From Parcubacteria group bacterium (GTDB taxonomy: Bacteria > Patescibacteriota > Patescibacteriia > UBA9934 > GWF2-40-263): a stretch of DNA of 64,000 nt. The stretch lies in assembly GCA_013204395.1 (NCBI GenBank), contig JABMNZ010000003.1, positions 13,570-77,569 on the forward strand. Direction: 5' to 3'. The notes below the pieces were generated by a model. That model ran no database searches and was not told where the DNA came from. It saw only the letters and a list, made by a program, of their open reading frames with translations. A program made the translations under genes and the position numbers. Shown piece after piece: positions 22,281 through 38,006 of the stretch; the first letter of the stretch is position 1; every line of letters starts with the position of its first letter.

Positions 22281-22360
22281 CGGCGACTCAGACAGCGGAA
22301 CAACTTTGAGTCGGCAATATGCGACCGATCTCACAAGTTCGTTCCGATGGCTGAGGTCGC
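22281..22360. repeat. Palindromic MITE/REP-like element, copy A
   Basis: ggcgactcagacagcGGAACAACTTTGAGTCGGCAATATGCGACCGATCTCACAAGTTCGTTCCgatggctgaggtcgcc. The core is 85-95% identical to copies at 28086, 29268, 31476 and 37928, and it folds as a long imperfect hairpin. Confidence 0.8.
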
Positions 22361-22384
22361 CCAATCATAGAGAGAAAGTCAGTC

Positions 22385-23512
22385 TCATCGATAATCAGCC
22401 GGCTCATAAACATTACGAGCATTCCAAAGAATCCACCCACCAGCACCTGCGTCACGAGCCGCCCTAATTTGCGACTCGATCAACTCCGCCGTGTAGTACG
22501 CTCCGATATCAAAGTCCTGTAACCAAGGCCGTGATTTTGCACGCAAATCTTCTTCCGTTCCAGACCAAACTCCTGCGATAAGATCGGCTCCTTCATCTAG
22601 CGACATTTTCACAATCTCATAAGGGTTCTCTGCTGGATTTGCGTACCCCTTGAATCCATTTGGATAATGACTTGGATACACCATAGGTGAAATCCAATCT
22701 GCGTACGGCAGGGCGTCCACAAACCGCTGACCAATATTAAAATCATCGTAAGACCAATACGTCATCCCAAATAAATCGAATGACACGGGTACCTGTTGAT
22801 CACGTAACGTTCCCCCTACTTTTTTGAAAAACTCCTGCATGACTTCCTCCTTACTCCTTACCCCGTCATACACGGGGTAAACAATCGCATGGACGGCCCC
22901 ATCAGAAGCAAAACGAACGTAATCAAACTGAATCTCATCGAATCCGGCTGCGTACAGTTCTAATCCTAAATCGATTGCGTAGTCAGCCACCTCTGGTGCT
23001 GCCGGGTCCACCCAAACAGACCCAATGCTGTCGAGCCAAAATGCACCCGAAGCTGTTCGCATGGCAATCTCAGGATGGGCATAAGCAAAAGCCCCGTCAC
23101 GCATAACAGCCACACGAGCAATACGATACACGTCCGCCTCATATAACTTATCAAGTACATCTTCAAATTTTTCTATATCAATTAACTCGCCGTCATCCAT
23201 CTTTACATCGATAACCACTGAGTTAAGTCCTGTTTCCAACATATAAGCCAGCAGTTGGTCTGCACGATGTGATCTGGCGGTATATGCCGTCCAATATATC
23301 CCCCGAACCTCATCTGGAGTGCTTATATGAATATCCTCCTCTTGTTCAACCTCATCGAGACCGAGCTCAGGGATTTCCACCTCGCCACTTTGCACAGGAA
23401 CATCCTCAGAAAATTCTTCAACATCGACATAGAATCCAACAACAAACGGAATCGCTACAAGTGCAACTAAAAACACAGGCACCCCTACGGCAATCCTGTG
23501 TTTTCTTTCCAT
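22385..23512 (-). CDS. Membrane-anchored TIM-barrel glycoside-hydrolase-like protein (DUF4015-like)
   Basis: N-terminal TM segment, then IYWTAYTARS...NSVVIDVKMDDGEL..., typical of putative GH-like DUF4015 proteins. The assignment is from memory. Confidence 0.4.
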   Translation of the reverse strand: MERKHRIAVGVPVFLVALVAIPFVVGFYVDVEEFSEDVPVQSGEVEIPELGLDEVEQEEDIHISTPDEVRGIYWTAYTARSHRADQLLAYMLETGLNSVVIDVKMDDGELIDIEKFEDVLDKLYEADVYRIARVAVMRDGAFAYAHPEIAMRTASGAFWLDSIGSVWVDPAAPEVADYAIDLGLELYAAGFDEIQFDYVRFASDGAVHAIVYPVYDGVRSKEEVMQEFFKKVGGTLRDQQVPVSFDLFGMTYWSYDDFNIGQRFVDALPYADWISPMVYPSHYPNGFKGYANPAENPYEIVKMSLDEGADLIAGVWSGTEEDLRAKSRPWLQDFDIGAYYTAELIESQIRAARDAGAGGWILWNARNVYEPADYR

Positions 23513-23513
23513 A

Positions 23514-24119
23514 TTATTGTTTGTCTTCCACCGCGACAGTTGTCATGGTGTCTCCAATGGCGATTGCGTCCACAACTTCCAATCCTTCTGTCACGCGTCC
23601 AAAGATTGTATAGGCCTTTGGCAATGGCACATCGCCCAACATAATGAAGAACTGAGAACCATTGGTATTAGGACCAGCATTGGCCATAGCCACTATCCCG
23701 CGCTCGTATTGATAATTATCTTTCAGCTCGTCTTCAAACCTGTATCCAGGACCACCTGATCCTGTTCCATTTGGATCCCCTCCCTGAATCACGAAACCTT
23801 CTTCGCGACGATGAAAGGTTAGACCATTGTAGTATCCACCTTCTGTGAGATACACAAAGTTGGAGACGGTTAATGGCGCTGTATCAGCAAAGAGCTCAAA
23901 AACAATGTCGCCCTTTTCTGTACTTAGCCGAATCTGCTTGTTTTCTATTTTCTCCCCCTCGAGCGCTCCTTGGAACGCCCATGCCTCTGACACGGTTTCT
24001 TCTACCACAACTTCTTGATCATTAATGATTATTACTTCCGCTTCCTCCGGAACTGATGTACACCCTCCACCCGCTAGCACCACAACGGCAGCCAGCGACA
24101 CAAGAACAAATCGTTTCAT
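23514..24119 (-). CDS. ppiB: Cyclophilin-type peptidyl-prolyl cis-trans isomerase, lipoprotein
   Basis: FHRREEGFVIQGGDP...GPNTNGSQFFIMLGDVPLPKAYTIFGRV cyclophilin motifs, with an N-terminal LAGGGC lipobox. Confidence 0.85.
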   Translation of the reverse strand: MKRFVLVSLAAVVVLAGGGCTSVPEEAEVIIINDQEVVVEETVSEAWAFQGALEGEKIENKQIRLSTEKGDIVFELFADTAPLTVSNFVYLTEGGYYNGLTFHRREEGFVIQGGDPNGTGSGGPGYRFEDELKDNYQYERGIVAMANAGPNTNGSQFFIMLGDVPLPKAYTIFGRVTEGLEVVDAIAIGDTMTTVAVEDKQ

Positions 24120-24133
24120 ACTTAGCGTCTAAG

Positions 24134-24724
24134 TTAATTCAGATAAGAGCGCCCAGCTTGGATAATATCAGCTAAACCAAGTTGAGCAATTGCTGTATCC
24201 AAGGACGGCCCCCCGAAGATTACGACCACAGATAGGATAGCGATCACGAATGACAGCACGCCTACAAGCTTTCCAACTTTCATTGGCATGTGGTCACAGT
24301 TGCGACAAGTTCCAATGTAAACGATCTTTCGTAATACTTCAACTGGCTTGTCGTTGGAGGTTAATTTTGTTTCGCTAACCGCCATGACTGGCATATTGTT
24401 CTCCAATGCCTCTTCAATAACCTGATCGACAACAGCCTCTACATCAATTTTTTCTTTTGCAATTGACTTTGATACAACAGCCTTCTTTTTAGCTACTGTC
24501 TTTTTCTTTGCCGGAGCCTTCTTCTTGGCAACAGTCTTTTTAACAACCACCTTCTTTTTAGGTGCAGCTTTTCCGGCGGAGCCGGATCCCGCTGTGCGGG
24601 GCTTTTTTGCTACGGCTGGTTTTTTAGCCGAGCGCTTTTTTGCAGCTGGCTTTCCGGCGGAGCCGGACCTGGCTACGCCTGGCTTTTTTGCCGCCGCTTT
24701 GGGAGCCTTCTTTTTTGTAGGCAT
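24134..24724 (-). CDS. Lysine/alanine-rich histone-H1-like protein with a C-terminal TM anchor
   Basis: AKKPGVARSGSAGKPAAKKRSAKKPAVAKKPRTAGSGSAGKAAPKKKVVVKKTVAKKKAPAKKK, then a hydrophobic C-terminus (LVGVLSFVIAILSVVVIFG). It contains two copies of the ccggcggagccgga motif, each encoding GSGSAG. Confidence 0.5.
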   Translation of the reverse strand: MPTKKKAPKAAAKKPGVARSGSAGKPAAKKRSAKKPAVAKKPRTAGSGSAGKAAPKKKVVVKKTVAKKKAPAKKKTVAKKKAVVSKSIAKEKIDVEAVVDQVIEEALENNMPVMAVSETKLTSNDKPVEVLRKIVYIGTCRNCDHMPMKVGKLVGVLSFVIAILSVVVIFGGPSLDTAIAQLGLADIIQAGRSYLN

Positions 24725-24783
24725 AAGAGTGCTCTCTCGAGTTACCCCGAGAAATAATGAACGATTAAAAAATATTATTTCCA

Positions 24784-25239
24784 TTATAGCACACGGCTCA
24801 CCGGCACCACTAATGTTGAGCCGGAAAACTCGATCTGTGCGCTCACAGATCCACTCGTGAGATCAAAGTTCGTTGCCAGTGGCAGCCATGTAAGTGTGTT
24901 TCGATTGAATTGATACAGCACCACTTCTGTTACATCCACACTCTCATCAATAAAAAATGTAAGTTCACCCCGCTCAAGTTGACCACTATCAAGTATGAGT
25001 TCATATGCCGGTCCAATCACACCATCTACGCCAACTTGCACATCCTTAAGTCGTTCGATTGTCACGTCAGCGGCACTACGAGTAAGTCCAGTGACCTGAA
25101 CCACCCCATCAGATGACCCAGCAACAAGTTGCTCGGGTGCTGATGACAAGAAAAAGAAAATGCTACCAAACAAAACCATCGCGACGACAATCGCGATGGA
25201 AGCCTGACCCTCTTTTTTCTTCCTCCCTACCATACCCAC
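24784..25239 (-). CDS. Small secreted or anchored hypothetical protein
   Basis: 151 aa with an N-terminal TM/signal segment (IAIVVAMVLFGSIFFFL). No family recognised. Confidence 0.4.
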   Translation of the reverse strand: MGMVGRKKKEGQASIAIVVAMVLFGSIFFFLSSAPEQLVAGSSDGVVQVTGLTRSAADVTIERLKDVQVGVDGVIGPAYELILDSGQLERGELTFFIDESVDVTEVVLYQFNRNTLTWLPLATNFDLTSGSVSAQIEFSGSTLVVPVSRVL

Positions 25240-25248
25240 CTATTATAC

Positions 25249-26316
25249 CTACTCTTCCCAAGGAAGTCCCGTTCGTCCAAAATGTCCGTATGTTGCTGTC
25301 GATTGATACACTGGTTTAAGAAGATCGAGCCTCTCAACAATCGCCTCGGGCCTAAAATCAAATTGCTGAGTAATCAGTTTAGTGAGATCTCCGGCGGAGC
25401 CGGACCCGGCTCCGCCGGGCATTTTTGCCCCCTTAGACTTCACACCAATACCAGAGGCATGGATATGCACGGGCTCAGCACGCCCCATGGAATACACCAA
25501 GTTAACCATGGCGGCTGATGCCAACTCTTGATCCACTATATAACGCGCTGCATAGCGAGCCATGTAAGCCCCTGCGCGATCCACCTTCCCAGGATTTTTT
25601 CCTGAAAATGAGCTGCCACCATGAGGAATTAACCCCCCATAAGTATCTACATTCGACTTGCGTCCATTCGCTCCTGAGTCCGCCTTGAATCCCGCCTCAG
25701 TAAATGAACCAATTGGATTGATAAGTAATTGAGTTCCATCTTCTCCCACAACAGGAATAAGCAAACGTTCCAAAAGTGCAGTCTGCACATCTTTTTCTGC
25801 AACACTCACTTGATGACTGGCACACACCGTGACCCCAGTAACTTTCTCACGCTCCATCACCACCTGAACTTTGCCATCTGGTTTGAGCCAAGAGAACATA
25901 GGATCTCCGCGACGCAGATCATCGAGTCTTCGCGCCAAAGCGTGTGCGTACACCACAGCGCGTGGCAAACGCTCGCGCGTTTCACTCGTAGCGTAACCAT
26001 TAATGATCATGTTGTCCGTTGCGCCGTTTTTCACGCGCTTCATTTCTTCGGACTGAGTCTCAATGTTTACGAAGACTTCTATGTCATCGTTGTAACCAAT
26101 GTCTTTGTAAATCTTCTGAGCAAGAGCTCCAAGATCAAAATCCGCTGTAGACGTCACCTCCCCACCTATCATCATCATGCCATGGCTTCCCATCACATTG
26201 AGATCCACCTGCGCCTGAGGGTCTCGACGCAAATACTCGTCCACAATGGCATCAGCGATTTGATCGCAAACTTTGTCTGGATGTCCCTGTGTAACTGATT
26301 CAACGGTCTTTTTCAT
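25249..26316 (-). CDS. metK: S-adenosylmethionine synthetase (bacterial type)
   Basis: ESVTQGHPDKVCDQIAD, GGGAFSGK-like GGSSFSGKNPGKVDRAGAYMARY, and ATYGHFGR C-terminal signatures. It carries an extra roughly 10-aa GGAGSGSAG insertion encoded by the 28-bp palindrome at 25391-25418. Confidence 0.9.
   Translation of the reverse strand: MKKTVESVTQGHPDKVCDQIADAIVDEYLRRDPQAQVDLNVMGSHGMMMIGGEVTSTADFDLGALAQKIYKDIGYNDDIEVFVNIETQSEEMKRVKNGATDNMIINGYATSETRERLPRAVVYAHALARRLDDLRRGDPMFSWLKPDGKVQVVMEREKVTGVTVCASHQVSVAEKDVQTALLERLLIPVVGEDGTQLLINPIGSFTEAGFKADSGANGRKSNVDTYGGLIPHGGSSFSGKNPGKVDRAGAYMARYAARYIVDQELASAAMVNLVYSMGRAEPVHIHASGIGVKSKGAKMPGGAGSGSAGDLTKLITQQFDFRPEAIVERLDLLKPVYQSTATYGHFGRTGLPWEE
25391..25418. 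repeat. Perfect 13-bp inverted repeat with a 2-bp spacer (ccggcggagccgg ac ccggctccgccgg) inside metK
   Basis: Exact palindrome. Its 14-nt half-site recurs at 24573-24586 and 24654-24667. Confidence 0.75.
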
Positions 26317-26410
26317 AGCGACCGCAGGTTATCAAAATCAGGCCTCTGAATCAACGGATAAGCTGTGCGGGACATGTTGACAAGTAATAAACAAAGGAGT
26401 CAAATATCGA

Positions 26411-27007
26411 TTGCATTCCTCCTGCGACATGGAAAGGCCATTGAACGTGACGAATTCCGAAGCTGCTCCCCCATTCCTGACTAGAACCGAAGCCTTCGAC
26501 CGCTCGGAGTACGAACCCTTCTACCTGGTGATTGGCATCATCTGCTTTACCATGGGCATCGCAGCCTTGCTGCAAGTTGGACTATTCACAGGTACAACCA
26601 ACCTGATCAAGTGGGCAACAGGTATCAGTGCACTTGTGAGCGCGGTTCTCCTGCTGAGCAAGGCTGTCTGGTCCTGGTACACCGGCAAACACCTGGCTTA
26701 CAAGATCTTCGTCTTACTCTGCCAAGAGAAAGATCTGCTTGGACAGGGCAACATCCTCCAAGCGTCACTCGATCAAATCGTGATGCTTCGAAAGGTACTG
26801 AGCAAGCACCAAACGAACATGACATACGAACAGAACATGCACTTGCTCGGCGAAGTCACTCTCTTCGAGGTTGAGTGCCAAGTCATCAGGGCAAAGCTCC
26901 ACGCAGAGCAAGCCGCCCGGCTACAACAGGCATTCAAGGCAAGTAGACACGACCCACCTTGGGTGAACTTCACTGACACGGCCAAACAGGCATCTGTGAG
27001 CGTCTAG
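26411..27007 (+). CDS. GC-rich small membrane protein, paralogue 1 of 3
   Basis: 2-3 TM helices followed by a helical C-terminus LLGQGNILQASLDQIVMLRKVL...AKLHAEQAARLQQAFKA. It is similar to the 27108 ORF (LLKRGDALLMQQRSLVAQERVL...AQLEAQMARH...LLRQAFKAAG). The start may be the MERPLN at 26429. Confidence 0.5.
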   Translation: MHSSCDMERPLNVTNSEAAPPFLTRTEAFDRSEYEPFYLVIGIICFTMGIAALLQVGLFTGTTNLIKWATGISALVSAVLLLSKAVWSWYTGKHLAYKIFVLLCQEKDLLGQGNILQASLDQIVMLRKVLSKHQTNMTYEQNMHLLGEVTLFEVECQVIRAKLHAEQAARLQQAFKASRHDPPWVNFTDTAKQASVSV

Positions 27008-27013
27008 CTCACC

Positions 27014-27042
27014 ACGACCCCGACACGGAGGGTCTTTTTTCT
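27014..27042 (+). terminator. Rho-independent terminator
   Basis: gaccc-cgacacgga-gggtc followed by ttttttc. Confidence 0.7.
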
Positions 27043-27107
27043 TTGACAAATTAAGCCCATGAGAGTGAAGTGCCCGCGACGCACCTAAACGCGGCAGAAA
27101 GGCCACT

Positions 27108-27647
27108 ATGTCTGAGAGTCTCCCCCTGCAGTCCTTCACCACCTTCACCTCCGAAACAGAGATGAAGGCCCGTTACAACTGGGACTTCTTGATGTTTGCC
27201 GCGCTCATGCCACTGCTCTCAGGTCTGTTCTACGCGACAGCCAGAGACACTGGAAGCTTCAACTCGGAGATCCTCCTCATCTCCATTCCGTTGATGGCCA
27301 TCCCGTTCTTCTTGGCGGCAGCGCTGTGGGTTTTCTTGCGAGGAGACCATCATCAGTACAGCACGTTCGTCGAACTGTGCCAGCCTGACAATCTCCTGAA
27401 AAGAGGTGATGCACTGCTCATGCAGCAGAGAAGTCTCGTGGCACAAGAGAGGGTCTTGACCCTGCTGGAAGAAGGCTACGGCCCCAGTCAAGAGTTGACT
27501 GAAGCACGTGCTCAACTGGAAGCACAGATGGCCCGCCACGCAACTCGCGTCACGGAACTCGCTCGTCAGCAGGACTATCTCCTGCGACAAGCGTTCAAAG
27601 CAGCTGGCAAGAACCCACGGTTCCTGAGAGAGCCAACGCCAACGTGA
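27108..27647 (+). CDS. GC-rich small membrane protein, paralogue 2
   Basis: 179 aa with TM helices in the N-terminal half. The C-terminal helical domain is homologous to the 26411 ORF. It is preceded by a TTGACA box at 27043 and ggcagaaagg 8 nt before the ATG. Confidence 0.5.
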   Translation: MSESLPLQSFTTFTSETEMKARYNWDFLMFAALMPLLSGLFYATARDTGSFNSEILLISIPLMAIPFFLAAALWVFLRGDHHQYSTFVELCQPDNLLKRGDALLMQQRSLVAQERVLTLLEEGYGPSQELTEARAQLEAQMARHATRVTELARQQDYLLRQAFKAAGKNPRFLREPTPT

Positions 27648-27704
27648 ACACCTGGTCACAAGCCTGACCAACACTGACCCCGAACAGACACAGAAAGGCA
27701 CCCC

Positions 27705-27971
27705 ATGTCCGAACAGGTAATAGACGCAGCCACACTCCGCACCGCCTTCATGAAGTCCCTCAGGAACTCCCTGGTGGTAGCGCTGATCATCGCTGCGGGA
27801 ATGGTCTACCTGAAACTCACCTACTCGCCCACAGAGAACCAGGAGGCCTATGGAATCACCATGGGCTCCGGAGGCTTGTTCCTGACCATCGTCACTCTTC
27901 ACGCGCTCGGAAACTGCTTCTTGTACTGGACTCACCCAGTACGAAAGGGATCCATCCCGTCTTCTGAGTGA
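27705..27971 (+). CDS. GC-rich small 2-TM membrane protein, paralogue 3 (short)
   Basis: 88 aa with two TM helices. It has the same acagaaagg...ATG upstream context and terminator type as its neighbours. Confidence 0.4.
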   Translation: MSEQVIDAATLRTAFMKSLRNSLVVALIIAAGMVYLKLTYSPTENQEAYGITMGSGGLFLTIVTLHALGNCFLYWTHPVRKGSIPSSE

Positions 27972-27996
27972 GACGAACTCCTCGCTCAACACACCT

Positions 27997-28022
27997 GACC
28001 CCCATACGGAGGGTCTTTTTTC
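27997..28022 (+). terminator. Rho-independent terminator
   Basis: gaccccc-atacgga-gggtc followed by tttttttc, nearly the same hairpin as at 27016. Confidence 0.7.
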
Positions 28023-28085
28023 TTATATAGAACATCTACAACCCCAACCCACCAAACAAAACGTCGACCCACCACGGGCCACCCA

Positions 28086-28146
28086 AGAGGAATGAGCGTC
28101 GACACAACTTTGAGTCGGCAACACGCGACCGATCTCACAAGTTCGT
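28086..28146. repeat. Palindromic MITE/REP-like element, copy B
   Basis: gcgtcgacACAACTTTGAGTCGGCAACACGCGACCGATCTCACAAGTTCGTGCCgacgatc. Confidence 0.75.
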
Positions 28147-28204
28147 GCCGACGATCAGTTCCTCCAAAGCCTTCACATCGACTTATCCCCACCACACCCC
28201 TTGC

Positions 28205-28246
28205 GTTCGGTTTTTGTTCGGTTCATAATACGAACATAAAGCGAAC
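28205..28246. promoter_or_regulatory. Candidate LexA operator: phased GTTC/GAAC tetrads with 11-bp periodicity forming an imperfect 42-bp palindrome, 10 bp upstream of the lexA start
   Basis: GTTCggtttttGTTCgGTTCataatacGAACataaagcGAAC. It contains GTTC-N7-GTTC (alphaproteobacterial-type SOS box architecture) and its inverse, centred on a dyad axis. Confidence 0.5.
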
Positions 28247-28870: not shown

Positions 28871-29089
28871 ACCGATCAAGAAGTTGCGGAGGGATCACGT
28901 AACATCTCGATAAAAAAAGATACTGAGCGTCCGGCAAGACAATTCTCAGTATCTACTCAAGGCACTACCTTGTTACGCCGAGGACGAATCCTCATTCGTA
29001 TGGCAGCTTTTGTATTGTAATGAAGGTGGGCGTGGAGAGCAAACCCGTCGGAGCTTGCTCTCTACACCTCACCTCTTAAAAAAGACCTC

Positions 29090-29190
29090 TAGGCCAAGGG
29101 TTCCGCTGCAAGCACGGGGACAGGAAAGACCATGCTCTGCCTGGGTGCCAGAGCCGTCACATCCAAGATCCTTCTTGCGGCCGAACCCTT
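29090..29190 (+). other. Candidate small structured RNA or regulatory element (long-range 18-bp stem enclosing internal hairpins)
   Basis: ccaagggttccgctgcaag (29093-29111) pairs with cttgcggccgaacccttg (29172-29189). An internal ctctg-cctgggtgc-cagag hairpin is present. Strand and function are unknown. Confidence 0.3.
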
Positions 29191-29267
29191 GATCTCGACC
29201 ATTATTCTTAACCCCAAGCATCTTCTTCACCCCTATCCCCCTCCACCACCAACATGGGTGTAACACC

Positions 29268-29347
29268 TCGACTCAGACATTGGGACAACTTTGAGTCGGC
29301 AATATGCGCCCGATCTCACAAGTTCGTACCAATGGCTGCAGTCGCCG
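29268..29347. repeat. Palindromic MITE/REP-like element, copy C
   Basis: cgactcagacattGGGACAACTTTGAGTCGGCAATATGCGCCCGATCTCACAAGTTCGTACCaatggctgcagtcgccgac. It has the same outer arms as copy A. Confidence 0.8.
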
Positions 29348-29583
29348 ACTATCAACAAGCTCGCCCAACACTCAACTCACAAACCCACCCCCTTCACCTT
29401 TTACAAACCATAACCCCATTACCCCTATGTCATCCTCGACCCTACGTTACACAGCCATCACACTATCATTCCTCCCTTACAAGCGTGATCATCGTTTTAC
29501 AAAAAGTCTACGCTCACTTCGTCTACGCGCTTCCAGACGCCGCGCTAAACAAGCTCTGCGACAAATACTCTCTCACGTAACAA

Positions 29584-30427: not shown

Positions 30428-31777
30428 ATGGAGCGCATCATTCTCCACATTGATTTTAATTCCTACTTCGCCTCTGTTGAACAGCAGGCGAATCCCTTTT
30501 TACGTGGCAAACCCATCGGCATCACAGGAAAAAGCCAGGAGCGCTCTGTTGTCGCCACAGCCTCAATTGAAGCCAAAGCCCTTGGTGTTAAAACAGCCAT
30601 GAGTACATGGGAGGCAAAGAAGGTATGCCCAACAATCATCCTCTGGCCTGGTGATCCAGAAAAGTATTCAGACATCACATCTAGATTTAATCGAATCTTA
30701 AGTGAGTTCACACCAAACGTCTCTCAGTTCAGTGTGGACGAGAGTTTTTTAGATATTACAGACGAGGCTGAAGATTATTTCGGCGCAACCTGCCTTGCTC
30801 AAGCTTTGCGCGAGCGACTCAGAGAGGAGTTTGGAGATCACATCACCGCTTCCATAGGCATCGCCCCAAACAAGCTCATGGCCAAACTCGCCTGCGAGTC
30901 AGTCAAACCTAATGGACTAACGGTCGTTCGCAAAGACGACTTAATCGATTTCATCGACACGCGTGAACTTGATGACCTATGTGGAATCGGACATCGTATA
31001 AAGCATCGCCTGAATGCTCTTGGCGTTGAAACTTTTAAACAACTCCGTGAATTCCCCATCAACGATCTCGTCGATGAATTCAAATCTTACGGCACTTGGC
31101 TACATGCAGCAGCTCATGGACACGACTCATCCGCGGTCGTCTCATCCACGCAAAAAGGCATTCGCACCATGCACTCGACTGGCGTGAAGTCTTATGGACA
31201 CTCATACACCCTCCCTCAAAACACTCACGACCTCCTTGTCATAAAACGATACCTACTAGGCCTGGCAGACAAAGTTGCATGGCGCATGCGCCGCGATAAA
31301 ACCCTAGCCCGTCGCGTAAGCGTCTTTGTTCGTTTTGGCGACTTCACTGGACACGGCGAGCAACGCACATTCAACGAACCAACAGCCAACGGACTAAAAC
31401 TATTCCAAATAGCCTGGCGCATCCTCTCCCCCCATCTCTCCCCTCACTCTCACCCCCAACCCACAGGCCGAGCACGCGACACAGACATTGGTACAACTTT
31501 GAGTCGGCCTACCAGTGACCGATCTCAAAGTTCGTACCAAGGGCTGGGGTCGCCCCCCAATGACCTAGTCCGCCTAGTAGGCCTATCTACATCCCTATTA
31601 TCCTCAGGTCCTGAACAACCACCTCTATTTAAAAAAGACCGAAAGATGATTTCCGTCTTCTCTTCACTCGACAAGCTTCAACATCGATATGGTCCCGGTG
31701 TCTGGCAACGCGCTTCAACCATGCCAATCGAATTCAAATCCCGATCTAGTGGATTCAATTATGACCACGAGGTTTAA
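30428..31777 (+). CDS. dinB: DNA polymerase IV (Y-family), with an in-frame palindromic-element insertion in the little-finger region
   Basis: ILHIDFNSYFASVEQ, SIDE-like VDESFLDIT, and the C-terminal LVRLVGLSTSLL...PPLF little-finger motifs. Residues around SPHLSPHSHPQPTGRARDTDIGTTLSRPTSDRSQSSYQGLGSP are encoded by repeat copy D, so the protein is roughly 80-100 aa longer than typical DinB. The start was trimmed to MERIIL. Confidence 0.8.
   Translation: MERIILHIDFNSYFASVEQQANPFLRGKPIGITGKSQERSVVATASIEAKALGVKTAMSTWEAKKVCPTIILWPGDPEKYSDITSRFNRILSEFTPNVSQFSVDESFLDITDEAEDYFGATCLAQALRERLREEFGDHITASIGIAPNKLMAKLACESVKPNGLTVVRKDDLIDFIDTRELDDLCGIGHRIKHRLNALGVETFKQLREFPINDLVDEFKSYGTWLHAAAHGHDSSAVVSSTQKGIRTMHSTGVKSYGHSYTLPQNTHDLLVIKRYLLGLADKVAWRMRRDKTLARRVSVFVRFGDFTGHGEQRTFNEPTANGLKLFQIAWRILSPHLSPHSHPQPTGRARDTDIGTTLSRPTSDRSQSSYQGLGSPPNDLVRLVGLSTSLLSSGPEQPPLFKKDRKMISVFSSLDKLQHRYGPGVWQRASTMPIEFKSRSSGFNYDHEV
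31476..31555. repeat. Palindromic MITE/REP-like element, copy D (inside the dinB coding sequence, frame preserved)
   Basis: gcgacacagacattGGTACAACTTTGAGTCGGCCTACCAGTGACCGATCTCAAAGTTCGTACCaagggctggggtcgcc. Confidence 0.8.
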
Positions 31778-32490: not shown

Positions 32491-32492
32491 AC

Positions 32493-33047
32493 CTATTCCC
32501 CAAACACACCTTCAACCAAGTGAGCTCCGGGGTCTGGGCTGCCATCAAACAAATTTACTGTGATCACTATATCTGTGTACGCAGAGTAGTCCTCTTTATC
32601 AGGAGCCACCCAGTCAATAACAAACTCACCGTCGTCATTTGTAATCATTGGTCCAAGAGAGAAAAAGTCGTATGGAATCTTCCTAATAATCCACGCCTGG
32701 TAGTAATGAATCTCTCGATCTATCTCTGGAAGCAACGTCTTTATTTCTATGTAGTACTCATCATCCTTCTGTCCTCGGCGTGCCTCACCAAGCTCTTCTC
32801 CTGTAGCCACCCATCGCAAGTTAGCCTCCTTTGCCTCGGTGTCCATGGCTCCGTTTATGATTGCCTGTGATATTGGGTCCGGTGTAAGCACGTTCACAAT
32901 AGAACCCACCTCAGACTCCTCAACCACAGGTTCAGCGCGGAACCACTTAACAGCAAAAACAAAAAGTAGAAACAGCGCAACTACAATCAGGCCACTGCCT
33001 ATCGTTGACCTCCAACGAATTCCTTTATTTTTTAGACCGTATTTCAT
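32493..33047 (-). CDS. Secreted or membrane-anchored hypothetical protein
   Basis: 184 aa with an N-terminal TM segment (LIVVALFLLFVFAV). No family recognised. Confidence 0.4.
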   Translation of the reverse strand: MKYGLKNKGIRWRSTIGSGLIVVALFLLFVFAVKWFRAEPVVEESEVGSIVNVLTPDPISQAIINGAMDTEAKEANLRWVATGEELGEARRGQKDDEYYIEIKTLLPEIDREIHYYQAWIIRKIPYDFFSLGPMITNDDGEFVIDWVAPDKEDYSAYTDIVITVNLFDGSPDPGAHLVEGVFGE

Positions 33048-34192
33048 ACGACAGCGGCTCGCTTTACAGCTTCAGCCACCACATCGGCCACACCAGGATC
33101 AAAGGGAGATGGAAGGATTTTGTGTGACGTTGGCTCTGGCACCATTTTAGACAATGCTGTTGCTGCGGCTACCAACATAGCTGGTGTGATTGTTTTTATA
33201 CGTGCTTCTAAGACTCCTTTAAAAATTCCAGGAAAAGCCAAAACATTATTTACTTGGTTAGGAAAATCAGATCTCCCGGTTGCAATAACGGCCACACCAG
33301 CTTTGTGTGCAACCTCAGGCATGATCTCAGGCACTGGATTTGCTAGAGCAAAAATAATCGGCTGTGCTGCCATGGACCGCGCCATCTCTTCGTCGACAAG
33401 CCCCGGCTGGCTGACACCAATAAAGACATCAGCACCATTAAGGGCCTGCGCCAATGTGCCTGTACGCCCATCGGGATTAATTTGCGCCGCCAACTCATCC
33501 TTATAAGGATTCATTCCATCGCGCCCAAGCGCAATCATTCCGCGAGAATCAATCATGTCCATATGTTTGAGTCCTGCATGAAAGAGAAGGTCAGCAACCC
33601 CCATCCCCCCGGAACCTGCACCGCATACAACCACCTTCACTTCGTCTATCTTTTTCCCAACAACCTTCAAAGCATTAATCAGTCCAGCCAAGACGACCAC
33701 AGCTGTTCCATGTTGATCGTCATGCATCACAGGAATATCCAACTCCTCGATAAGCCTGCGTTCTATCTCAAAACAACGTGGCGCTGATATGTCTTCCAAA
33801 TTGATTCCTCCAAACCCAGGGGCAATCCACTTCACCGCCTGAACAATCTCGTCTACATCTTGTGTATCTAAACAAATTGGATACGCGTCAATGTTGGCAA
33901 AGTGCTTAAACAAAATCGCCTTACCTTCCATGACCGGCAAACCAGCCTCTGGTCCAATGTTTCCCAAACCAAGCACAGCCGATCCATCTGTTATTACCGC
34001 CACTGAACGTCCTTTAATGGTCAGATCCCACGCTCGAGATTTATCTGCAGCAATAACTCGACACGGTTCAGCCACACCAGGAGTATAAGCAATGGAAAGA
34101 TCATCCGTGGTCTCCATTGGAAACGTAGACTGGATCTCCAACTTCCCCTGCTTTTTCTTATGAAGTTCCAGTGACTCTTTAGAATAGTTCAT
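33044..34192 (-). CDS. NAD(P)-dependent malic enzyme (short, about 380-aa type)
   Basis: LSIAYTPGVAEPC, GLGNIGPEAGLPVMEGKAILFK and VVCGAGSGGMGVA are the malic-enzyme and Rossmann signatures. Confidence 0.85.
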   Translation of the reverse strand: MNYSKESLELHKKKQGKLEIQSTFPMETTDDLSIAYTPGVAEPCRVIAADKSRAWDLTIKGRSVAVITDGSAVLGLGNIGPEAGLPVMEGKAILFKHFANIDAYPICLDTQDVDEIVQAVKWIAPGFGGINLEDISAPRCFEIERRLIEELDIPVMHDDQHGTAVVVLAGLINALKVVGKKIDEVKVVVCGAGSGGMGVADLLFHAGLKHMDMIDSRGMIALGRDGMNPYKDELAAQINPDGRTGTLAQALNGADVFIGVSQPGLVDEEMARSMAAQPIIFALANPVPEIMPEVAHKAGVAVIATGRSDFPNQVNNVLAFPGIFKGVLEARIKTITPAMLVAAATALSKMVPEPTSHKILPSPFDPGVADVVAEAVKRAAVV

Positions 34193-34209
34193 AAACGTTC
34201 GATTACCTT

Positions 34210-36300
34210 CTATAAATCATCAACATTTCTTAAAAAACTCATTGAACTCACATCCTTCTCTTCTCGCTCTCCAATGTCATTAAGCACGATAGTCGGACCC
34301 TCATCACCATCATTCCAGCGCGATCTGCTTGGCGCGGTGTATGCAGCCTTGAGTCTAACTTGTTCGAATAAATCATCTGGGAGCTCCTGCAAGAACTGTG
34401 ATGGCTGTCCTATCATGAGCGTATCATAGCCAGAAGTGATCGGGTATGTGTAAAAAAGTTGCTTGCGCGCACGTGTCGTTGCCACGTAAAACAATCGTCT
34501 CTCTTCCTCAAGACCACCTTTTTCTTCAAGCGCCCGACCAATGGGAAACTTTCCATCAATCAAATGCATCACAAACACAGCATCCCATTCAAGTCCCTTT
34601 GCTTGATGAATGGTAGACAGAACGATCTTCTCAGCATCATCATGCCCGCCTTGTTCCCTCACCGCCCCGTAGTCTGCACTGAGCGACACCTCATCAAGAA
34701 AAGTGGTCAGACTCTTATATCCCTCTGCAAATAATGCAAATTGTTCTAGATCGTCCAAACGATCCATAAAGTCCGGGTACTCAGCTTCGACATAATCTCG
34801 ATAGTCCCCACCGATTACAGCCCTAATCAAATCAGAGGGCATCTCTTCGGCGGCTAGCTTTGTAAGCGTTCTGAGCAAGGTGGCCCATCCAGCTTGTGCG
34901 CGCTTACCAAACTTCATTTCTACCTTGAGAATCTCCTCTAGGGATTCAACTCCCTTTATCAATGAAATAATTTTTTGTGCCGTCACCAATCCAACCCCAC
35001 TGAGAAGACCCAGAACTCTCATCCAAGCCACTTCATCTTTTGGATTCTGCTTGATTCGCAGATGCGTCACAATATCCTTCACGTGTGCTCTTTCAAAAAA
35101 CTTAAGCCCTCCACGATACTCGTAAGGGATATCTCGCTTCATGAGTTCAAACTCAAGTGTCTGTGAGTGATAAGCCGCACGAAACAAAACGGCAATTTCA
35201 CTGAGAGGAATACCCTCATCGCGTAGCACCAAAATTCGTTGGGCAATATATTGTGCTTCTTGGTTACTATTGGATGCTGGCACTAAATTAGGACGTTCCA
35301 ATCCGTCTCGTACGGTAGTGAGTTCTTTTTTAAACTGCTCTCTGTTTTTTATAATCGACTCGTTAGCCACAGCCAAAATCTCAGGTGACGATCGGTAGTT
35401 GATTGTGAGTCTAAACGTTTTTGTTTCGTTGTACGTCTGAGGAAACCCAAGAATATTCTTGATCTCAGCGGCGCGGAATGAATAAATGGATTGCGCGTCA
35501 TCCCCAACCACTAAAATATTTCCGTGCTCAGCTGCAAGCTGCCTAACAATCTCCGCCTGCACAACATTTGTATCCTGATACTCATCAACCAGAATATACT
35601 CAAACTGATGAGCGAGCTGCTGTCGAATATTCTCACGCGTATACAAAAGTTCTCGAAGTTTCAAAAGCAGGTCATCAAAGTCCATGGCGTCTGCCTCCCG
35701 CTTACGTATGTGATATAGCTCAGCTATTCTCTCGATGATCGGAATGATTTCCTTAAAGTTTGAATAACGGCCCTCGATCACTTCCCTCAGGGTGCCGCCA
35801 GAGTTCATGGAGTAACTAATCATCCCGTGCAACTTGGCAGGCGATGGAAAACGTCGCTCGGAAGTATCGACGTTCAATACTTTGATACAAACCTTTATGA
35901 GCGACTTGGCATCCTCTTGATCCAAAATCGTAAAACTTGATGTGTACCCAAGCTCACGCGCGTACTTTCGCAGGAGTCGGTTAGCTATGGAGTGAAACGT
36001 TCCACCCCAGAGACCAACTGGGTACCTCCCCAAAAGCCCTTCAACGCGTGACAACATCTCTTTGGCCGCCTTGTTCGTGAACGTCACGAGCAGAATATTG
36101 TCCGCACTGACCCCTCGTTCTAATAAATAGGCCACGCGGTACGTAATGGTCCTGGTTTTACCCGACCCAGCCCCTGCCAAAACAAGAGCGGGTCCATCTC
36201 CGTTAAGAACCACTTCCAGCTGCTGTGGATTCAATTCCTTTTTAAAATCAATCGTTGACTGCGATAGATCAAAATCATCTTGTAATACAAATTCCTTCAT
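34210..36300 (-). CDS. uvrD: ATP-dependent DNA helicase UvrD/PcrA
   Basis: Walker A AGAGSGKTRT, motif II ILVDEYQDTN, plus VGDDAQSIYSFRAA and TIHQAKGLEWDAVFV helicase motifs. Confidence 0.9.
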   Translation of the reverse strand: MKEFVLQDDFDLSQSTIDFKKELNPQQLEVVLNGDGPALVLAGAGSGKTRTITYRVAYLLERGVSADNILLVTFTNKAAKEMLSRVEGLLGRYPVGLWGGTFHSIANRLLRKYARELGYTSSFTILDQEDAKSLIKVCIKVLNVDTSERRFPSPAKLHGMISYSMNSGGTLREVIEGRYSNFKEIIPIIERIAELYHIRKREADAMDFDDLLLKLRELLYTRENIRQQLAHQFEYILVDEYQDTNVVQAEIVRQLAAEHGNILVVGDDAQSIYSFRAAEIKNILGFPQTYNETKTFRLTINYRSSPEILAVANESIIKNREQFKKELTTVRDGLERPNLVPASNSNQEAQYIAQRILVLRDEGIPLSEIAVLFRAAYHSQTLEFELMKRDIPYEYRGGLKFFERAHVKDIVTHLRIKQNPKDEVAWMRVLGLLSGVGLVTAQKIISLIKGVESLEEILKVEMKFGKRAQAGWATLLRTLTKLAAEEMPSDLIRAVIGGDYRDYVEAEYPDFMDRLDDLEQFALFAEGYKSLTTFLDEVSLSADYGAVREQGGHDDAEKIVLSTIHQAKGLEWDAVFVMHLIDGKFPIGRALEEKGGLEEERRLFYVATTRARKQLFYTYPITSGYDTLMIGQPSQFLQELPDDLFEQVRLKAAYTAPSRSRWNDGDEGPTIVLNDIGEREEKDVSSMSFLRNVDDL

Positions 36301-36374
36301 AACGGCCCCATTCTATCATAAAAAAAGACCCCTGACCCTCGACGTTATCGAGTTGGTCAAGGGGTCAAAGGGGG

Positions 36375-37760
36375 CTACAGAGGAGCACAAGCCTTGCGCA
36401 ACTCTGCGTCCACACTCTTGAGATCGGGCCCACCGTCTGTGAGCTGGCGCATGAGGTGAACGTTTGCCAGGTGTACGTGCGGGAACACACTGGCACGAAC
36501 CTGGCGACTGAACCCGTAGTCTAGCAACTGGCCCGTCATCGGATCTGGACGAGTAAGTCGTCGGTGTATGGACTTGAGCTCGTCGTCCCAAGCTCTACAG
36601 CAAGAGTCTGAGACGGTTTGGCTTCGGTCCATGAGAATCGCCGTCTGCAACAAGAGCTCCTCAAGCTGCCAGTGGAGTTCCCGAAGCTTCATGCTGTGAT
36701 AGACACGAATGAGCACGTCCCGCGCGCGCAACATCACGGCAGCGGCGGCATCAGGAATTTCGCTTCGTGCCACTTTGGCAGCCTCAGCCATGATGGCGGC
36801 AACCTCACGAAGGTCACGCACGGTGTGCTTGATGGAACGATCAAACGGCTTGGTGACGACGGCTTCGAGCTTTGTCGCCACCGCTCCCAGACGTCCCGCT
36901 TCCTTGATGACCGTCCCGGTAGAACGTTCTTCAGAGGAACCTGCTCGCCTTGCATCAAACGGCAGAAGTCGATCGTCACCAAACAGTTTCCTGGACTGCA
37001 GGCGATGCAACTGGGAGTCAGCGATCTGGCGACACATCAACCGATGACGATCGATGTAGACCTCCAGGACCGCCTCACGAAAACTCATTCTTCGTGAAAT
37101 GCCGCGCACCCCCTGAATCCGCTTGGCGAGCTGAGTTTGCCCCGCGAAGATGATCAGTGGGATACGACCAGGATTGAACCTCCCGATCGAGTCTTTCAGC
37201 TCTCCGGCCTGAAGCACGCGGCGCAGAGCCTCTACCTTACGTTCGTCAATGACACGACCATGCCTGTCCAGCAGAGCGGCCGCAACCAGGACGTACTCCT
37301 GTTTTTCACCCTCACCAACCAGGTGAAGGGTCCATGATGTCTTGACCATCCAGTTGAAGGTGTCGTCCCAGGTACGAAGATCGGGAATCTCGATGCTCTT
37401 GCCGCGCACCTCAGCGTGGGCCATCCCTCGTCGAGCCGTGTAGACGGTCTTGTACGAGATGAAACACTGTTGCCCATATTCCAGAGGATCCTCGCCATTG
37501 AGGCGCTCTGAGACACTCAGGTTTCTGGACAAGATACGACCTGGGGCAAGCTCCGGAACATCCGCAAGAACGTCGGTGCCGCGAGCCGGTACCATGTAAA
37601 GACAGTGTGGAACCAGCTCAATGAGAGCAAAGTTCAAGACATTGAGGGGAGACTGTTTGCCCTCACCCTTTCTCCTAGTACGCAGAAGCCTGAAGTCACG
37701 AGTAATGACAACGGGCTCCATCGGATCCGGCATTTCAAACCGGCCTGTGGAATGAGCCAC
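36375..37760 (-). CDS. GC-rich hypothetical protein
   Basis: 461 aa, Arg/Leu-rich and predicted cytoplasmic. Codon usage is distinct from flanking genes. No family recognised. Its upstream region contains repeat copy E. Confidence 0.45.
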   Translation of the reverse strand: MAHSTGRFEMPDPMEPVVITRDFRLLRTRRKGEGKQSPLNVLNFALIELVPHCLYMVPARGTDVLADVPELAPGRILSRNLSVSERLNGEDPLEYGQQCFISYKTVYTARRGMAHAEVRGKSIEIPDLRTWDDTFNWMVKTSWTLHLVGEGEKQEYVLVAAALLDRHGRVIDERKVEALRRVLQAGELKDSIGRFNPGRIPLIIFAGQTQLAKRIQGVRGISRRMSFREAVLEVYIDRHRLMCRQIADSQLHRLQSRKLFGDDRLLPFDARRAGSSEERSTGTVIKEAGRLGAVATKLEAVVTKPFDRSIKHTVRDLREVAAIMAEAAKVARSEIPDAAAAVMLRARDVLIRVYHSMKLRELHWQLEELLLQTAILMDRSQTVSDSCCRAWDDELKSIHRRLTRPDPMTGQLLDYGFSRQVRASVFPHVHLANVHLMRQLTDGGPDLKSVDAELRKACAPL

Positions 37761-37927
37761 GATTCAGACCTCCTTTTCCAGTGCTTTTTCTCAATGAATC
37801 AGCCCTGCAAGATAATCAAATCCAACCACCTTGTCAACACTAATTTCCCCAAAAACAAAACAAAGGTCTCGACGACCTTTGTTTTGTTAACCCCCCCTCT
37901 CCACACCACCAGTCGTGGGTAAACCAC

Positions 37928-38006
37928 CGCGAACGAGCGTTGGGACAACTTTGAGTCGGCAATATGCGACCGATCTCACAAGTTTGTACCAGTGATCGGT
38001 TCGCCG
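37928..38006. repeat. Palindromic MITE/REP-like element, copy E
   Basis: cgcgaacgagcgttGGGACAACTTTGAGTCGGCAATATGCGACCGATCTCACAAGTTTGTACCagtgatcggttcgccg. Confidence 0.8.

What the first reader, a model, noticed from the sequence alone, without database searches (positions are those of the whole stretch)
22281..38006. A family of five roughly 80-bp imperfect palindromic (MITE/REP/RPE-like) elements is confined to a 16-kb stretch
Copies at 22281-22360, 28086-28146, 29268-29347, 31476-31555 and 37928-38006 share the core GGRACAACTTTGAGTCGGC-N9-GACCGATCTCACAAGTTYGTRCC and complementary outer arms (ggcgac...gtcgcc). Each can fold into a long bulged hairpin with nested stems (tcgg/ccga inner stem). 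Four copies lie just downstream of terminators of GC-rich cassettes or SOS genes, and one lies inside dinB. Their clustering around lexA, dinB, uvrD and foreign-looking cassettes suggests a mobile or recombinogenic small element marking a plastic region.
Basis: seen in the sequence. Interest (0 to 1): 0.7.

Follow-up and report, generated by a model that had tools for sequence, protein, structure and literature searches.

The report
Dispersed bulged-hairpin repeat of Uhrbacteria-like bacteria
The five sequences are real copies of a previously undescribed, roughly 80-base hairpin-forming repeat that is gained and lost between closely related Uhrbacteria-like (candidate phyla radiation) genomes, once even in-frame inside the dinB gene; it behaves like a small mobile palindromic element but fits none of the textbook families.

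Summary
There are five copies (67-75 bits with a covariance model; the next best hit is 14.5 bits). All lie on the + strand within 16 kb, and none occurs in the other ~67 kb of the same contig. Each folds into a long hairpin with an invariant apical core (ACAACTTTGAGTCGG / CCGA-T-CTCA-Y-AAGTT-C-GT, with fixed single-base bulges). The outer stem varies but stays paired (94.6% paired vs 78% in shuffles; 13 pairs changed on both sides).

The family also occurs in other Uhrbacteria-like genomes. There it sits in tight gaps between unrelated genes, in either orientation. Copy 4 is an in-frame 117-nt insertion in dinB. It is shared by an 88%-identical relative and absent from relatives at 81% identity and below. 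Three more distant syntenic regions (60 kb) have no copy.

So this is a gained-and-lost palindromic repeat, not an SOS operator and not an attC site. It fails strict MITE and REP criteria: the apex is conserved rather than the termini, there is no consistent target duplication, and no transposase was found. The "GC-rich cassettes" are lineage-conserved ORFans, not recent imports. The mobilising enzyme is unknown; action on a folded single DNA strand is inferred only.

The parts
22282..22361 (+). Copy 1 (w1), outer-stem subfamily A. It lies between the convergent 489-aa ORFan (+) and the DUF4015 gene (-).
   Evidence: DNA fold -28 kcal/mol, z -7.5; 72.5 bits, model extent 22275-22362.
28087..28164 (+). 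Copy 2 (w2), outer-stem subfamily B, about 90 nt upstream of the lexA start codon.
   Evidence: z -5.9; 74.5 bits. Orthologues upstream of lexA occur in L140 (rearranged) and L143.
29269..29344 (+). Copy 3 (w3), subfamily A. It lies downstream of lexA and a conserved noncoding block, and upstream of the 85-aa ORF.
   Evidence: 72.6 bits. Present in L140 and absent at the same place in L143.
31476..31553 (+). Copy 4 (w4), subfamily A, lying in frame inside dinB.
   Evidence: (67.3 bits).
37929..38004 (+). Copy 5 (w5), subfamily B. It lies between the yceG stop codon (-) and the start of the 461-aa ORFan (-).
   Evidence: z -3.0; 75 bits.
31451..31567 (+). The 117-nt (39-codon) segment present in the dinB genes of the window and L140 but absent from L141 and L143. 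It comprises a short C-rich left extension, hairpin copy 4 and about 14 nt on the right.
   Evidence: DNA alignment A5 and protein alignment A4. The peptide ...AWRILS[PHLSPHSHPQPTGRARDTDIGTTLSRPTSDRSQSSYQGLGSPPNDL]VRLVGLS is read.
30428..31777 (+). dinB (DNA polymerase IV), 449 aa here against 402-410 aa in most relatives.
   Evidence: P0001, 100% identical, 'DNA polymerase IV [Parcubacteria group bacterium]'.
22237..22270 (+). C-rich, G-poor tract immediately left of copy 1. Equivalent tracts lie at 29210-29256, 31418-31466 and 37882-37911 (left of copies 3, 4, 5). Further tracts lie at 28170-28202 and 29360-29417 (right of copies 2 and 3).
   Evidence: 7 of the 22 such tracts in the window lie within about 60 nt of the five copies. 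Also.
22216..22248 (.). A-run, GC hairpin (GGGCTCGATGCCC), T-run: a two-way terminator-like hairpin left of copy 1. Near-identical ones precede both L143 copies. Similar ones lie at 37851-37887 (before copy 5) and 27997-28024 (before copy 2).
   Evidence: Read. 27997-28024 is repeat D10. The simple scan lists only 22187-22204.

Best explanation
The five sequences belong to a dispersed, non-coding, hairpin-forming repeat family. It is found in Uhrbacteria-like Patescibacteria (candidate phyla radiation). Each unit is one long bulged hairpin of about 78-90 nt.

The invariant part is apical. A 15-bp core stem, ACAACTTTGAGTCGG paired with CCGA-T-CTCA-Y-AAGTT-C-GT, carries single extra bases at fixed places on the 3' arm. 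The outer 10-20 bp differ between copies but always pair with their own partner arm.

Shown:
- Units are gained and lost as whole units between close relatives.
- They land in very short intergenic gaps.
- Once, a unit landed in frame in a tolerant part of dinB.

Inferred:
- The folded single strand is the functional form, not the duplex. The conserved bulges break the duplex symmetry.
- A trans-acting enzyme encoded elsewhere in the genome recognises the apical core.
- All 6-7 independent insertions in this lineage lie on the same (C-rich, presumed lagging) strand, although neighbouring genes face both ways. The most likely route is therefore strand-specific insertion into single-stranded DNA at the replication fork, as with HUH (Y1) transposases of IS200/IS605 and REP/RAYT systems.

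In the window's sub-clade the unit has acquired C-rich flanks and often an adjacent terminator-like hairpin. It has accumulated locally: 2, 3 and 5 copies in successively closer relatives.
For: Family and structure:
- Five copies score 67-75 bits and nothing else in the window exceeds 14.5 bits.
- In alignment A7 (25 rows), 94.6% of cells are paired against 77.9 +/- 1.0 in shuffles and 29-52% when the partner is slid. 13 pairs change on both sides, in 116 cells.
- The bulges sit at the same positions in all copies.

Gain and loss:
- The dinB insertion is present in the window and L140 and absent from L141, L142 and L143.
- The site downstream of lexA is filled in the window and L140 and empty in L143.
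- The mreB/glycosyltransferase junction is filled in L120, L121 and L135 and empty (2-nt gap) in the window genome.
- L143 has a copy between a 150-aa gene and metK, which are 9 nt apart in the window.
- There is no copy in 60 kb of syntenic DNA from three relatives with 62-66% DinB identity.
- A 100% identical Logan contig breaks inside copy 4, as assemblers do at repeats.

Dispersal:
- 13 distinct instances occur in other metagenome contigs, between unrelated genes and in both orientations relative to transcription.

The unit moves whole:
- Each copy's outer arms pair with each other although they differ between copies.

No preferred RNA strand:
- There are 12 G.T wobbles on the forward strand against 10 A.C, which would be wobbles on the other strand.

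Orientation and clustering:
- All copies in the window, L140 and L143 are on the same strand.
- The window has negative GC skew throughout.
- My arithmetic: 7 same-strand events give a two-sided p of about 0.016. Five points within 15.8 of 83 kb give about 0.006, assuming uniform placement.

Constraint:
- The stems of orthologous copy 4 are 68/70 identical between the window and L140. Flanking coding DNA is 79-90% identical.
Against: - No transposase, recombinase or integrase was found in the 83 kb of contig examined.
This is a weak test.
- No consistent target-site duplication or conserved flanking tetranucleotide was seen.
- The full genome could not be searched, so total copy number and replichore-wide orientation are unknown.
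- In other genomes the orientation relative to local GC skew is only 9 of 12, and it is confounded with gene direction.
- Paired changes in a DNA palindrome can also arise by template switching between arms, without selection.
- The same intergenic site (mreB/glycosyltransferase) is occupied in two genomes whose neighbouring protein is only about 65% identical by eye. This fits long retention under selection as well as it fits mobility.
Confidence: 0.62

Rival explanations
1. Host-serving structured RNA. In this view the hairpin is an mRNA element that punctuates operons, for example as a 3' end stabiliser, an RNase III-type processing site or a terminator accessory. It would have spread by duplication because it is useful.
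For: - The hairpin is very stable and structurally constrained.
- Copies sit exactly between co-directional genes with 1-20 nt to spare.
- In the window lineage, copies are often joined to terminator-like hairpins.
- Stems are more conserved than flanking coding DNA.
- The core is invariant between genomes whose DinB proteins are about 65% identical.
Against: - Copies occur in both orientations relative to transcription.
- There is no excess of G.U over A.C, so no preferred RNA strand.
- Three syntenic relatives have none at all, so no copy at these sites is needed.
- One copy lies inside a coding sequence.
- There is no Rfam match, even at permissive thresholds.
Confidence: 0.15
2. Ordinary TIR-type MITE. 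In this view it is an internally deleted insertion sequence whose two inverted ends form the hairpin, moved in trans by a DDE transposase encoded elsewhere in the genome.
For: - It is small, non-coding, palindromic, intergenic, and shows presence/absence polymorphism.
- A possible 6-nt direct repeat AGTTTA flanks the L120 copy, and CCCCAA flanks copy 4.
Against: - The outermost arms, which a DDE transposase would bind, are the least conserved part. The centre is invariant.
- The putative duplications are not reproduced in L135 or L140.
- No IS with matching ends occurs in any locus fetched.
- Fixed bulges are not expected of two TIRs. MITE features are as summarised in PMC10969869.
Confidence: 0.1
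3. attC-like recombination sites of an integron-like cassette array, or a cluster of attC sites lacking an integrase. In this view the stretches between copies are exchangeable cassettes.
For: - The sites are imperfect palindromes with extrahelical bases.
- Structure is conserved over sequence in part of the stem.
- All five have the same orientation.
- AAC...GTT triplets occur in the core.
- The copies sit at slots where gene content varies between relatives.
Against: - There is no integrase in 83 kb.
- The R''/R' consensus RYYYAAC/GTTRRRY (from my knowledge of attC sites) is not matched by GGNACAAC/GTTCGTN.
- The intervals are 1.2-6.5 kb and hold housekeeping genes on both strands.
- Each copy's outer arms still pair with each other. 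A crossover inside the core would have shuffled them.
- In other genomes single copies sit between essential genes.
Confidence: 0.04
4. Operator or regulatory site of an SOS or stress regulon (LexA- or HspR-type), given its position near lexA, dinB and uvrD here and near uvrA and dnaK elsewhere.
For: - Copies lie upstream of lexA, of the 85aa-dinB stretch and of the 461aa-uvrD stretch here.
- In other genomes copies lie next to uvrA and dnaK.
- There is a loose resemblance to the HspR inverted repeat CTTGAGT-N7-ACTCAAG. That consensus is recalled from memory.
Against: - Copies are also found between metG/cvpA, nifU/ferredoxin, mreB/glycosyltransferase, lepA/recJ-like and others.
- Copies are absent from the same lexA-dinB-uvrD neighbourhood in three relatives.
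- The half-sites are not equivalent in duplex form because of the bulges.
- lexA has its own conserved GTTC-N7-GTTC boxes nearer the start codon.
Confidence: 0.01

Closest known systems
Rickettsia palindromic elements (RPE)
   Same: Both are short palindromic repeats in a reduced genome whose mobilising enzyme is unknown. Both are found in intergenic DNA and also inserted in frame into protein-coding genes that stay open (RPE behaviour as summarised in PMC10969869). Here the insertion is 39 codons in dinB, kept in two genomes.
   Different: No sequence relationship to RPEs was tested or is expected. Only one of about 25 known copies is intragenic. The hairpin here is about 80 nt against about 100-150 bp for RPEs. 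The host phylum is different.
REP/BIME elements with RAYT (HUH Y1) transposases, and IS200/IS605 hairpin ends
   Same: In both, an imperfect hairpin is read as a folded single strand with sequence-specific features. No terminal inverted repeats or target duplications are needed. Orientation is linked to the replication strand. These properties are from my knowledge of the families. Here the matching observations are fixed bulges, whole-unit movement and the same strand for all 6-7 insertions.
   Different: REPs are 20-40 nt with a conserved 5' GTAG, while this element is 78-90 nt without it. No RAYT or TnpA gene was found (weak test). IS200/IS605 ends are two different hairpins, not a single one.
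Bacterial MITEs (Correia, ERIC, RUP, Chunjie, QMITE)
   Same: Both are small, non-coding, mostly intergenic, fold into long hairpins and vary in copy number between strains (PMC10969869).
   Different: MITEs keep conserved terminal inverted repeats and direct target duplications. Here the termini vary, the apex is invariant, and no consistent duplication is seen.
Integron attC sites
   Same: Both are imperfect palindromes whose folded strand carries extrahelical bases. In both, structure is conserved more than sequence in part of the stem, and arrays share one orientation.
   Different: The conserved boxes are apical here, not basal. There is no R''/R' consensus, no integrase and no cassette-like spacing, and the arms are not shuffled.

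Membership tests
MITE (TIR-type, DDE transposase-dependent) | Terminal inverted repeats conserved among copies and matching a parent IS | tested here: not met
   The outer stem columns are the most variable part (6 of 6 outer pairs change on both sides). The apical core never varies. No parent IS occurs in any locus.
MITE (TIR-type, DDE transposase-dependent) | Direct target-site duplication flanking each copy | tested here: inconclusive
   Filled versus empty comparisons were made for dinB, the lexA-downstream site and mreB/glycosyltransferase. AGTTTA flanks L120 and CCCCAA flanks copy 4, but neither recurs in the orthologous L135 or L140 copies.
MITE (TIR-type, DDE transposase-dependent) | Small (<300 bp), non-coding, multi-copy, with presence/absence polymorphism | tested here: met
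REP / RAYT system | A 20-40 nt imperfect palindrome with a conserved 5' tetranucleotide (GTAG) | tested here: not met
   The hairpins are 76-90 nt. No GTAG or other invariant base lies outside the stem. There is only a weak AAT(T/G)A tendency 5' of some Uhrbacteria copies.
REP / RAYT system | A RAYT (Y1 HUH) gene in the genome, typically flanked by REPs | tested here: inconclusive
   There is no Pfam Y1_Tnp hit among window ORFs or in the contig gene tables. tblastn with memory-typed RayT and IS200 TnpA found nothing below E = 0.2 in 364 kb. The whole genome was not available.
Rickettsia palindromic elements | In-frame insertion into protein-coding genes that remain open | tested here: met
   One copy meets this. 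dinB is 449 aa with a 39-codon insert, open in the window and L140, and absent in P0003-P0005. The AF2 model places the insert in a low-confidence coil between helix 322-336 and strand 381-389, but the model is poor (mean pLDDT 45).
Rickettsia palindromic elements | Sequence homology to RPE families, in a Rickettsia host | not tested
   No RPE sequences were available in the tools. The host is a Patescibacterium, so this is an analogy and not membership.
Integron attC | R''/R' (RYYYAAC / GTTRRRY) core sites at the base of the stem | tested here: not met
   The only AAC/GTT pair lies mid-stem (GGNACAAC / GTT-C-GTNCC), and pairing continues 10-20 bp beyond it.
Integron attC | An adjacent intI integrase, or an array of short promoterless cassettes | tested here: not met
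   There is no tyrosine recombinase in 83 kb. The intervals are 1.2-6.5 kb with housekeeping genes on both strands.
IS200/IS605-derived palindrome-associated elements | Strand-specific orientation relative to replication | tested here: inconclusive
   All 6-7 insertions in the window lineage lie on the C-rich strand. Elsewhere the count is 9 of 12, confounded with gene direction. No complete replichore was available.
Any Rfam RNA family | A covariance-model match | tested here: not met
   At gathering threshold the window yields only the L10 leader. Permissive scans of two copy-bearing stretches give only chance-level hits away from the element.

The most novel reading that the evidence does not exclude
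The element could be the footprint of an undescribed mobilisation or homing system of candidate phyla radiation bacteria. In this reading an unknown enzyme reads an apical, bulged hairpin core on one DNA strand and cuts in or near the loop. It repeatedly re-copies the apical part among copies within a genome.

This would explain four observations:
- Loops and core variants are genome-specific, while outer stems are locus-specific.
- 9 of 11 loop bases differ between orthologous copies whose stems are 97% identical.
- One copy sits inside the loop of another (L140).
- The core is invariant across genomes with about 65% identical housekeeping proteins.
Probability: 0.2. Interest if true: 0.75.

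Novelty: new variant of a known kind. Interest (0 to 1): 0.45.

Why it matters
Candidate phyla radiation genomes are about 1 Mb, tightly packed and thought to carry few mobile elements. Here a repeat squeezes between essential genes and into dinB, and it accumulates within one 16-kb neighbourhood over short evolutionary time. Small selfish or domesticated DNA is therefore active in these genomes.

The architecture is unusual: an invariant bulged apex with freely co-varying arms. It offers a clean handle (a covariance model) for finding the still-unknown partner enzyme by co-occurrence. It also serves as a fine-scale marker of strain divergence and a cause of assembly breaks in Uhrbacteria metagenome bins.

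If the partner is an ordinary HUH or DDE enzyme, this is simply one more repeat family.

Tried and rejected
1. The genome-contig scan used a bare 15-mer.
2. I tested a stress/SOS regulon idea, because the first relatives sat next to uvrA and dnaK. I dropped it after seeing the full set of contexts and the empty syntenic regions.
3. Resemblance to the HspR and CIRCE inverted repeats came from memory only. It is not compatible with the bulges or the contexts.
4. attC/integron was rejected on arm complementarity, lack of an integrase and cassette spacing.
5. Rfam gave nothing at gathering or permissive thresholds.
6. A viral-contig scan with the two-part pattern gave 0 hits.
7. tblastn with RayT and IS200 TnpA gave nothing.
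8. The second insertion at the same dinB position in P0032 is not this family: the best model hit in L148 is 5.4 bits.
9. Orientation against local GC skew in other genomes was 9 of 12, not significant and confounded.
10. ARAGORN's single 'permuted tmRNA' inside the 489-aa ORF is treated as a false positive.
11. GTTC-N7-GTTC boxes are not enriched outside the lexA promoter.
12. The AF2 model of DinB had too shallow an alignment (pLDDT 45) to say more than that the insert is predicted as coil.
13. Literature searches for such repeats in these phyla found nothing relevant.

Full report
**Observation**

The five sequences exist as described. The 16-mer ACAACTTTGAGTCGGC occurs exactly five times, always on the + strand, at 22300, 28104, 29285, 31493 and 37945. 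None of 100 dinucleotide-preserving shuffles reached five matches even with three mismatches allowed.

Folded as single-stranded DNA, each copy forms one long bulged hairpin: 22282-22361, 28087-28164, 29269-29344, 31476-31553 and 37929-38004. Energies are 3 to 7.5 standard deviations below shuffles on the + strand.

The outer arms ggcgac/gtcgcc apply to copies 1, 3 and 4. Copies 2 and 5 have a different outer stem that is equally self-complementary. Homology ends about 110 nt from the core, so these are separate short units and not pieces of a larger duplication.

**Source organism and relatives**

The window is part of a 140-kb JGI metagenome contig, Ga0335110_1073954. Its DinB is annotated as Parcubacteria group, and the nearest named relatives are Candidatus Uhrbacteria.

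A first scan of genome contigs with a bare 15-mer was mostly chance hits. It still revealed the same two-part core in Uhrbacteria and Kerfeldbacteria bins. A more specific metagenome scan gave 20 loci, 13 of them distinct instances.

**Structural constraint**

An alignment of 18 copies gave a consensus hairpin of 26 pairs, 11 of them with changes on both sides. I built a covariance model from it.

On the 25-row model alignment, 94.6% of cells are standard pairs. This compares with 77.9 +/- 1.0 in column shuffles and 29-52% when partners are slid. 13 pairs and 116 cells show changes on both sides.

The variation is all in the outer stem and the loop. The apical core, ACAACTTTGAGTCGG paired with CCGA-T-CTCA-Y-AAGTT-C-GT, is invariant or nearly so. 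It has single unpaired bases at fixed places on the 3' arm. Even the one variable core pair changes C-G to T-A on both sides in L140 and L143.

Two outer-stem types recur across genera:
- the GACTCAGAC/GACTGAGGC type;
- the ATGAGCGT type.

**Distribution**

With filters off, the model finds only the five copies in the window; the next hit scores 14.5 bits. It finds none in the roughly 19 kb of additional contig fetched on the two sides. That is five copies in 15.8 kb and none in about 67 kb. By my arithmetic this has a probability of roughly 0.006 under uniform placement.

In other genomes the element fills very short gaps between co-directional genes of unrelated function. Examples are uvrB/uvrA, grpE/dnaK, xseA/xseB, mreB/glycosyltransferase, metG/cvpA-like, nifU-like/ferredoxin, two heavy-metal-domain genes, lepA/recJ-like and frr. 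It occurs in either orientation relative to transcription. This removed my early idea of a stress-regulon operator.

**Gain and loss**

*Copy 4 in dinB.* The dinB ORF is 449 aa, against 402-410 aa in most relatives. The protein reads ...AWRILS, then about 39 extra residues, then VRLVGLS... and continues with the normal C-terminal region.
- The 88% identical protein P0002 (locus L140) has the same insertion.
- P0003 and P0004 (81%, 80%) and P0005 (75%) lack it.
- At the DNA level the extra segment is 117 nt, at 31451-31567.
- A structure model was too poor (mean pLDDT 45) to say more than that the insert is predicted as coil between a helix and a strand of the C-terminal domain.

*Syntenic relatives*:
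- L140 has orthologues of copies 2, 3 and 4.
- L143 has one copy upstream of lexA and one at a new site next to metK, where the window has a 9-nt gap. It has none after lexA or in dinB.
- The window genome has an empty mreB/glycosyltransferase junction that is filled in L120, L121 and L135.
- Three further relatives with the same gene order (DinB 62-66% identical; 60 kb in all) have no copy.
- A 100% identical short-read contig ends inside copy 4, as expected at a repeat.

The element therefore entered this neighbourhood only in the window's sub-clade. It accumulated there to 2, 3 and 5 copies in successively closer relatives.

**Orientation**

All copies in the window, L140 and L143 lie on the same strand. 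That amounts to 6-7 independent insertion sites, although the neighbouring genes face both ways. The window has negative GC skew throughout and most of its genes are on the - strand. The + strand is therefore probably the lagging strand. This step is inference.

Seven same-strand events give a two-sided p of about 0.016. In the other genomes the orientation relative to local skew is 9 of 12 and is confounded with gene direction.

**DNA or RNA**

Wobble pairs do not favour either strand. There are 12 G.T on the forward strand and 10 A.C, which would be G.T on the reverse strand. Copies are transcribed in either sense. No Rfam family matches.

The fixed bulges make the two half-sites non-equivalent in duplex DNA, so a folded strand is the likely functional form. 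Taken together, these points favour a DNA-level element read as a hairpin. An RNA role is not excluded.

**What it is not**

- *Not a strict MITE.* The termini vary, the apex is conserved, and no reproducible target duplication is seen. MITE criteria follow the review PMC10969869.
- *Not a canonical REP.* It is too long, has no conserved 5' tetranucleotide, and no RAYT was found (one search is a weak test).
- *Not attC.* No integrase was found and the core consensus does not match. Above all, each copy's arms still pair with each other, which a crossover inside the core would have destroyed.
- *Closest behavioural analogue.* This is the Rickettsia palindromic element family, which also inserts in frame into genes of a reduced genome and whose mobilisation is unknown. 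That is an analogy, not membership.

**The 'GC-rich cassettes'**

The 489-aa and 461-aa ORFs and the 198/179/88-aa ORFs have no Pfam, NCBIfam or PHROG match. They are not recent imports:
- the 461-aa ORF has a 74% identical homologue at the same place in L140, and ORFs of 443 and 429 aa occupy the slot in L149 and L151;
- the 198-aa and 88-aa ORFs have homologues in L143.

These are fast-evolving lineage-specific genes in three variable slots of an otherwise conserved gene order. Copies 1, 2 and 5 sit at the edges of those slots.

**Lineage-specific extras**

In the window sub-clade the hairpin is accompanied by C-rich, G-poor tracts. Seven of the window's 22 such tracts lie within about 60 nt of a copy.

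In several cases an A-run/GC-hairpin/T-run module is also present, and it is nearly identical at different loci. The Uhrbacteria copies from other samples are bare hairpins.

**Unexplained**

- Orthologous copy 4 differs between the window and L140 at only 2 of 70 stem positions but at 9 of 11 loop positions. Flanking coding DNA is 79-90% identical.
- Orthologous copy 3 is only 66% identical, with paired changes.
- Paralogues inside one genome share the loop and core variant even when their outer stems differ.
- In L140 the copy upstream of lexA consists of the left half of one element followed, from its loop onward, by a complete second element.

This pattern suggests that the apical part is homogenised or re-copied within a genome and that the loop is a site of breakage. 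No mechanism is shown.

**Verdict**

This is a real, previously undescribed family of small palindromic repeats of Uhrbacteria-like bacteria. It behaves as mobile DNA, has an unusual apex-conserved architecture, and its partner enzyme is unknown. Interest is moderate.

Noticed in passing
window 28203-28246: Immediately upstream of lexA lies GCGTTCGGTTTTTGTTCGGTTCATAATACGAACATAAAGCGAAC. It contains two GTTC-N7-GTTC boxes in inverted orientation and is invariant in L140 and L143. It is a candidate LexA operator of the direct-repeat type known from Alphaproteobacteria (from my knowledge). The motif is not enriched elsewhere in the window (5 matches against 2.4 expected).
   Followed up: partly
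window about 28880-29240: A roughly 350-nt noncoding block after lexA is highly conserved in L140 and L143. It includes GGTTCCGCTGCAAG...CTTGCGGCCGAACC and a GGAAAGACC...GGGTGCCAGAG stretch. It is absent from the more distant relatives L149-L151 and has no Rfam match. It may be a lineage-specific structured RNA.
   Followed up: partly
L140 100-240: The orthologue of copy 2 is broken. Its left arm and left core are followed, from the loop onward, by a complete second element with a different outer stem. The right half of the first element is missing. This looks like a nested insertion or a recombination between copies.
   Followed up: partly
window 20693-22162 (+), 36375-37760 (-), 26411-27971 (+): These are GC-rich ORFans (54-60% GC against about 46% for the window) with no Pfam, NCBIfam or PHROG match. 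They occupy three slots whose content varies between otherwise syntenic Uhrbacteria genomes. The 198-aa and 179-aa ORFs are paralogues (29% identity, E = 9e-11).
   Followed up: partly
window 13418-13458 and 14053-14093: A 41-nt sequence (AAGAAAAAGCAGCCTGCGTCAAGGCTGCGCGTTGAGAGCTA) is repeated at 98% identity 635 nt apart, next to the L10 leader (13266-13383, -). It contains a GC hairpin.
   Followed up: no
window 24456-24698 and 25390-25432: Repeats of TCCGGCGGAGCCGG...GGCTTTTTTGC lie in and after the lysine/alanine-rich HC2-like gene (24134-24784, -). The copy at 25390-25419 scores as a strong terminator-like hairpin.
   Followed up: no
window 20774-21381 (-): ARAGORN calls a 608-nt 'permuted tmRNA' inside the 489-aa ORFan. 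No other tRNA or tmRNA is called in 64 kb. I treated it as a false positive.
   Followed up: no
window 42421-44676 and 50230-54618: A 2.2-kb stretch has only short ORFs (at most 147 aa) between the iPGM and enolase genes. Separately, there is a 1462-aa ORF with no Pfam family in the contig's gene table.
   Followed up: no
L148 1385-1455 (dinB of P0032): A different, unrelated 20-codon insertion sits at the same position of dinB where copy 4 lies. It contains small GC hairpins (ccgccagaggcgg, ctgccttcggcgg). That loop of DinB therefore tolerates insertions repeatedly.
   Followed up: partly
window 62705-62794: There is an 18-nt tandem repeat (CCTCACCTTCAGCNNNAG, 4-5 units) inside the ribosomal protein L25-family gene (62688-63374, -).
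   Followed up: no
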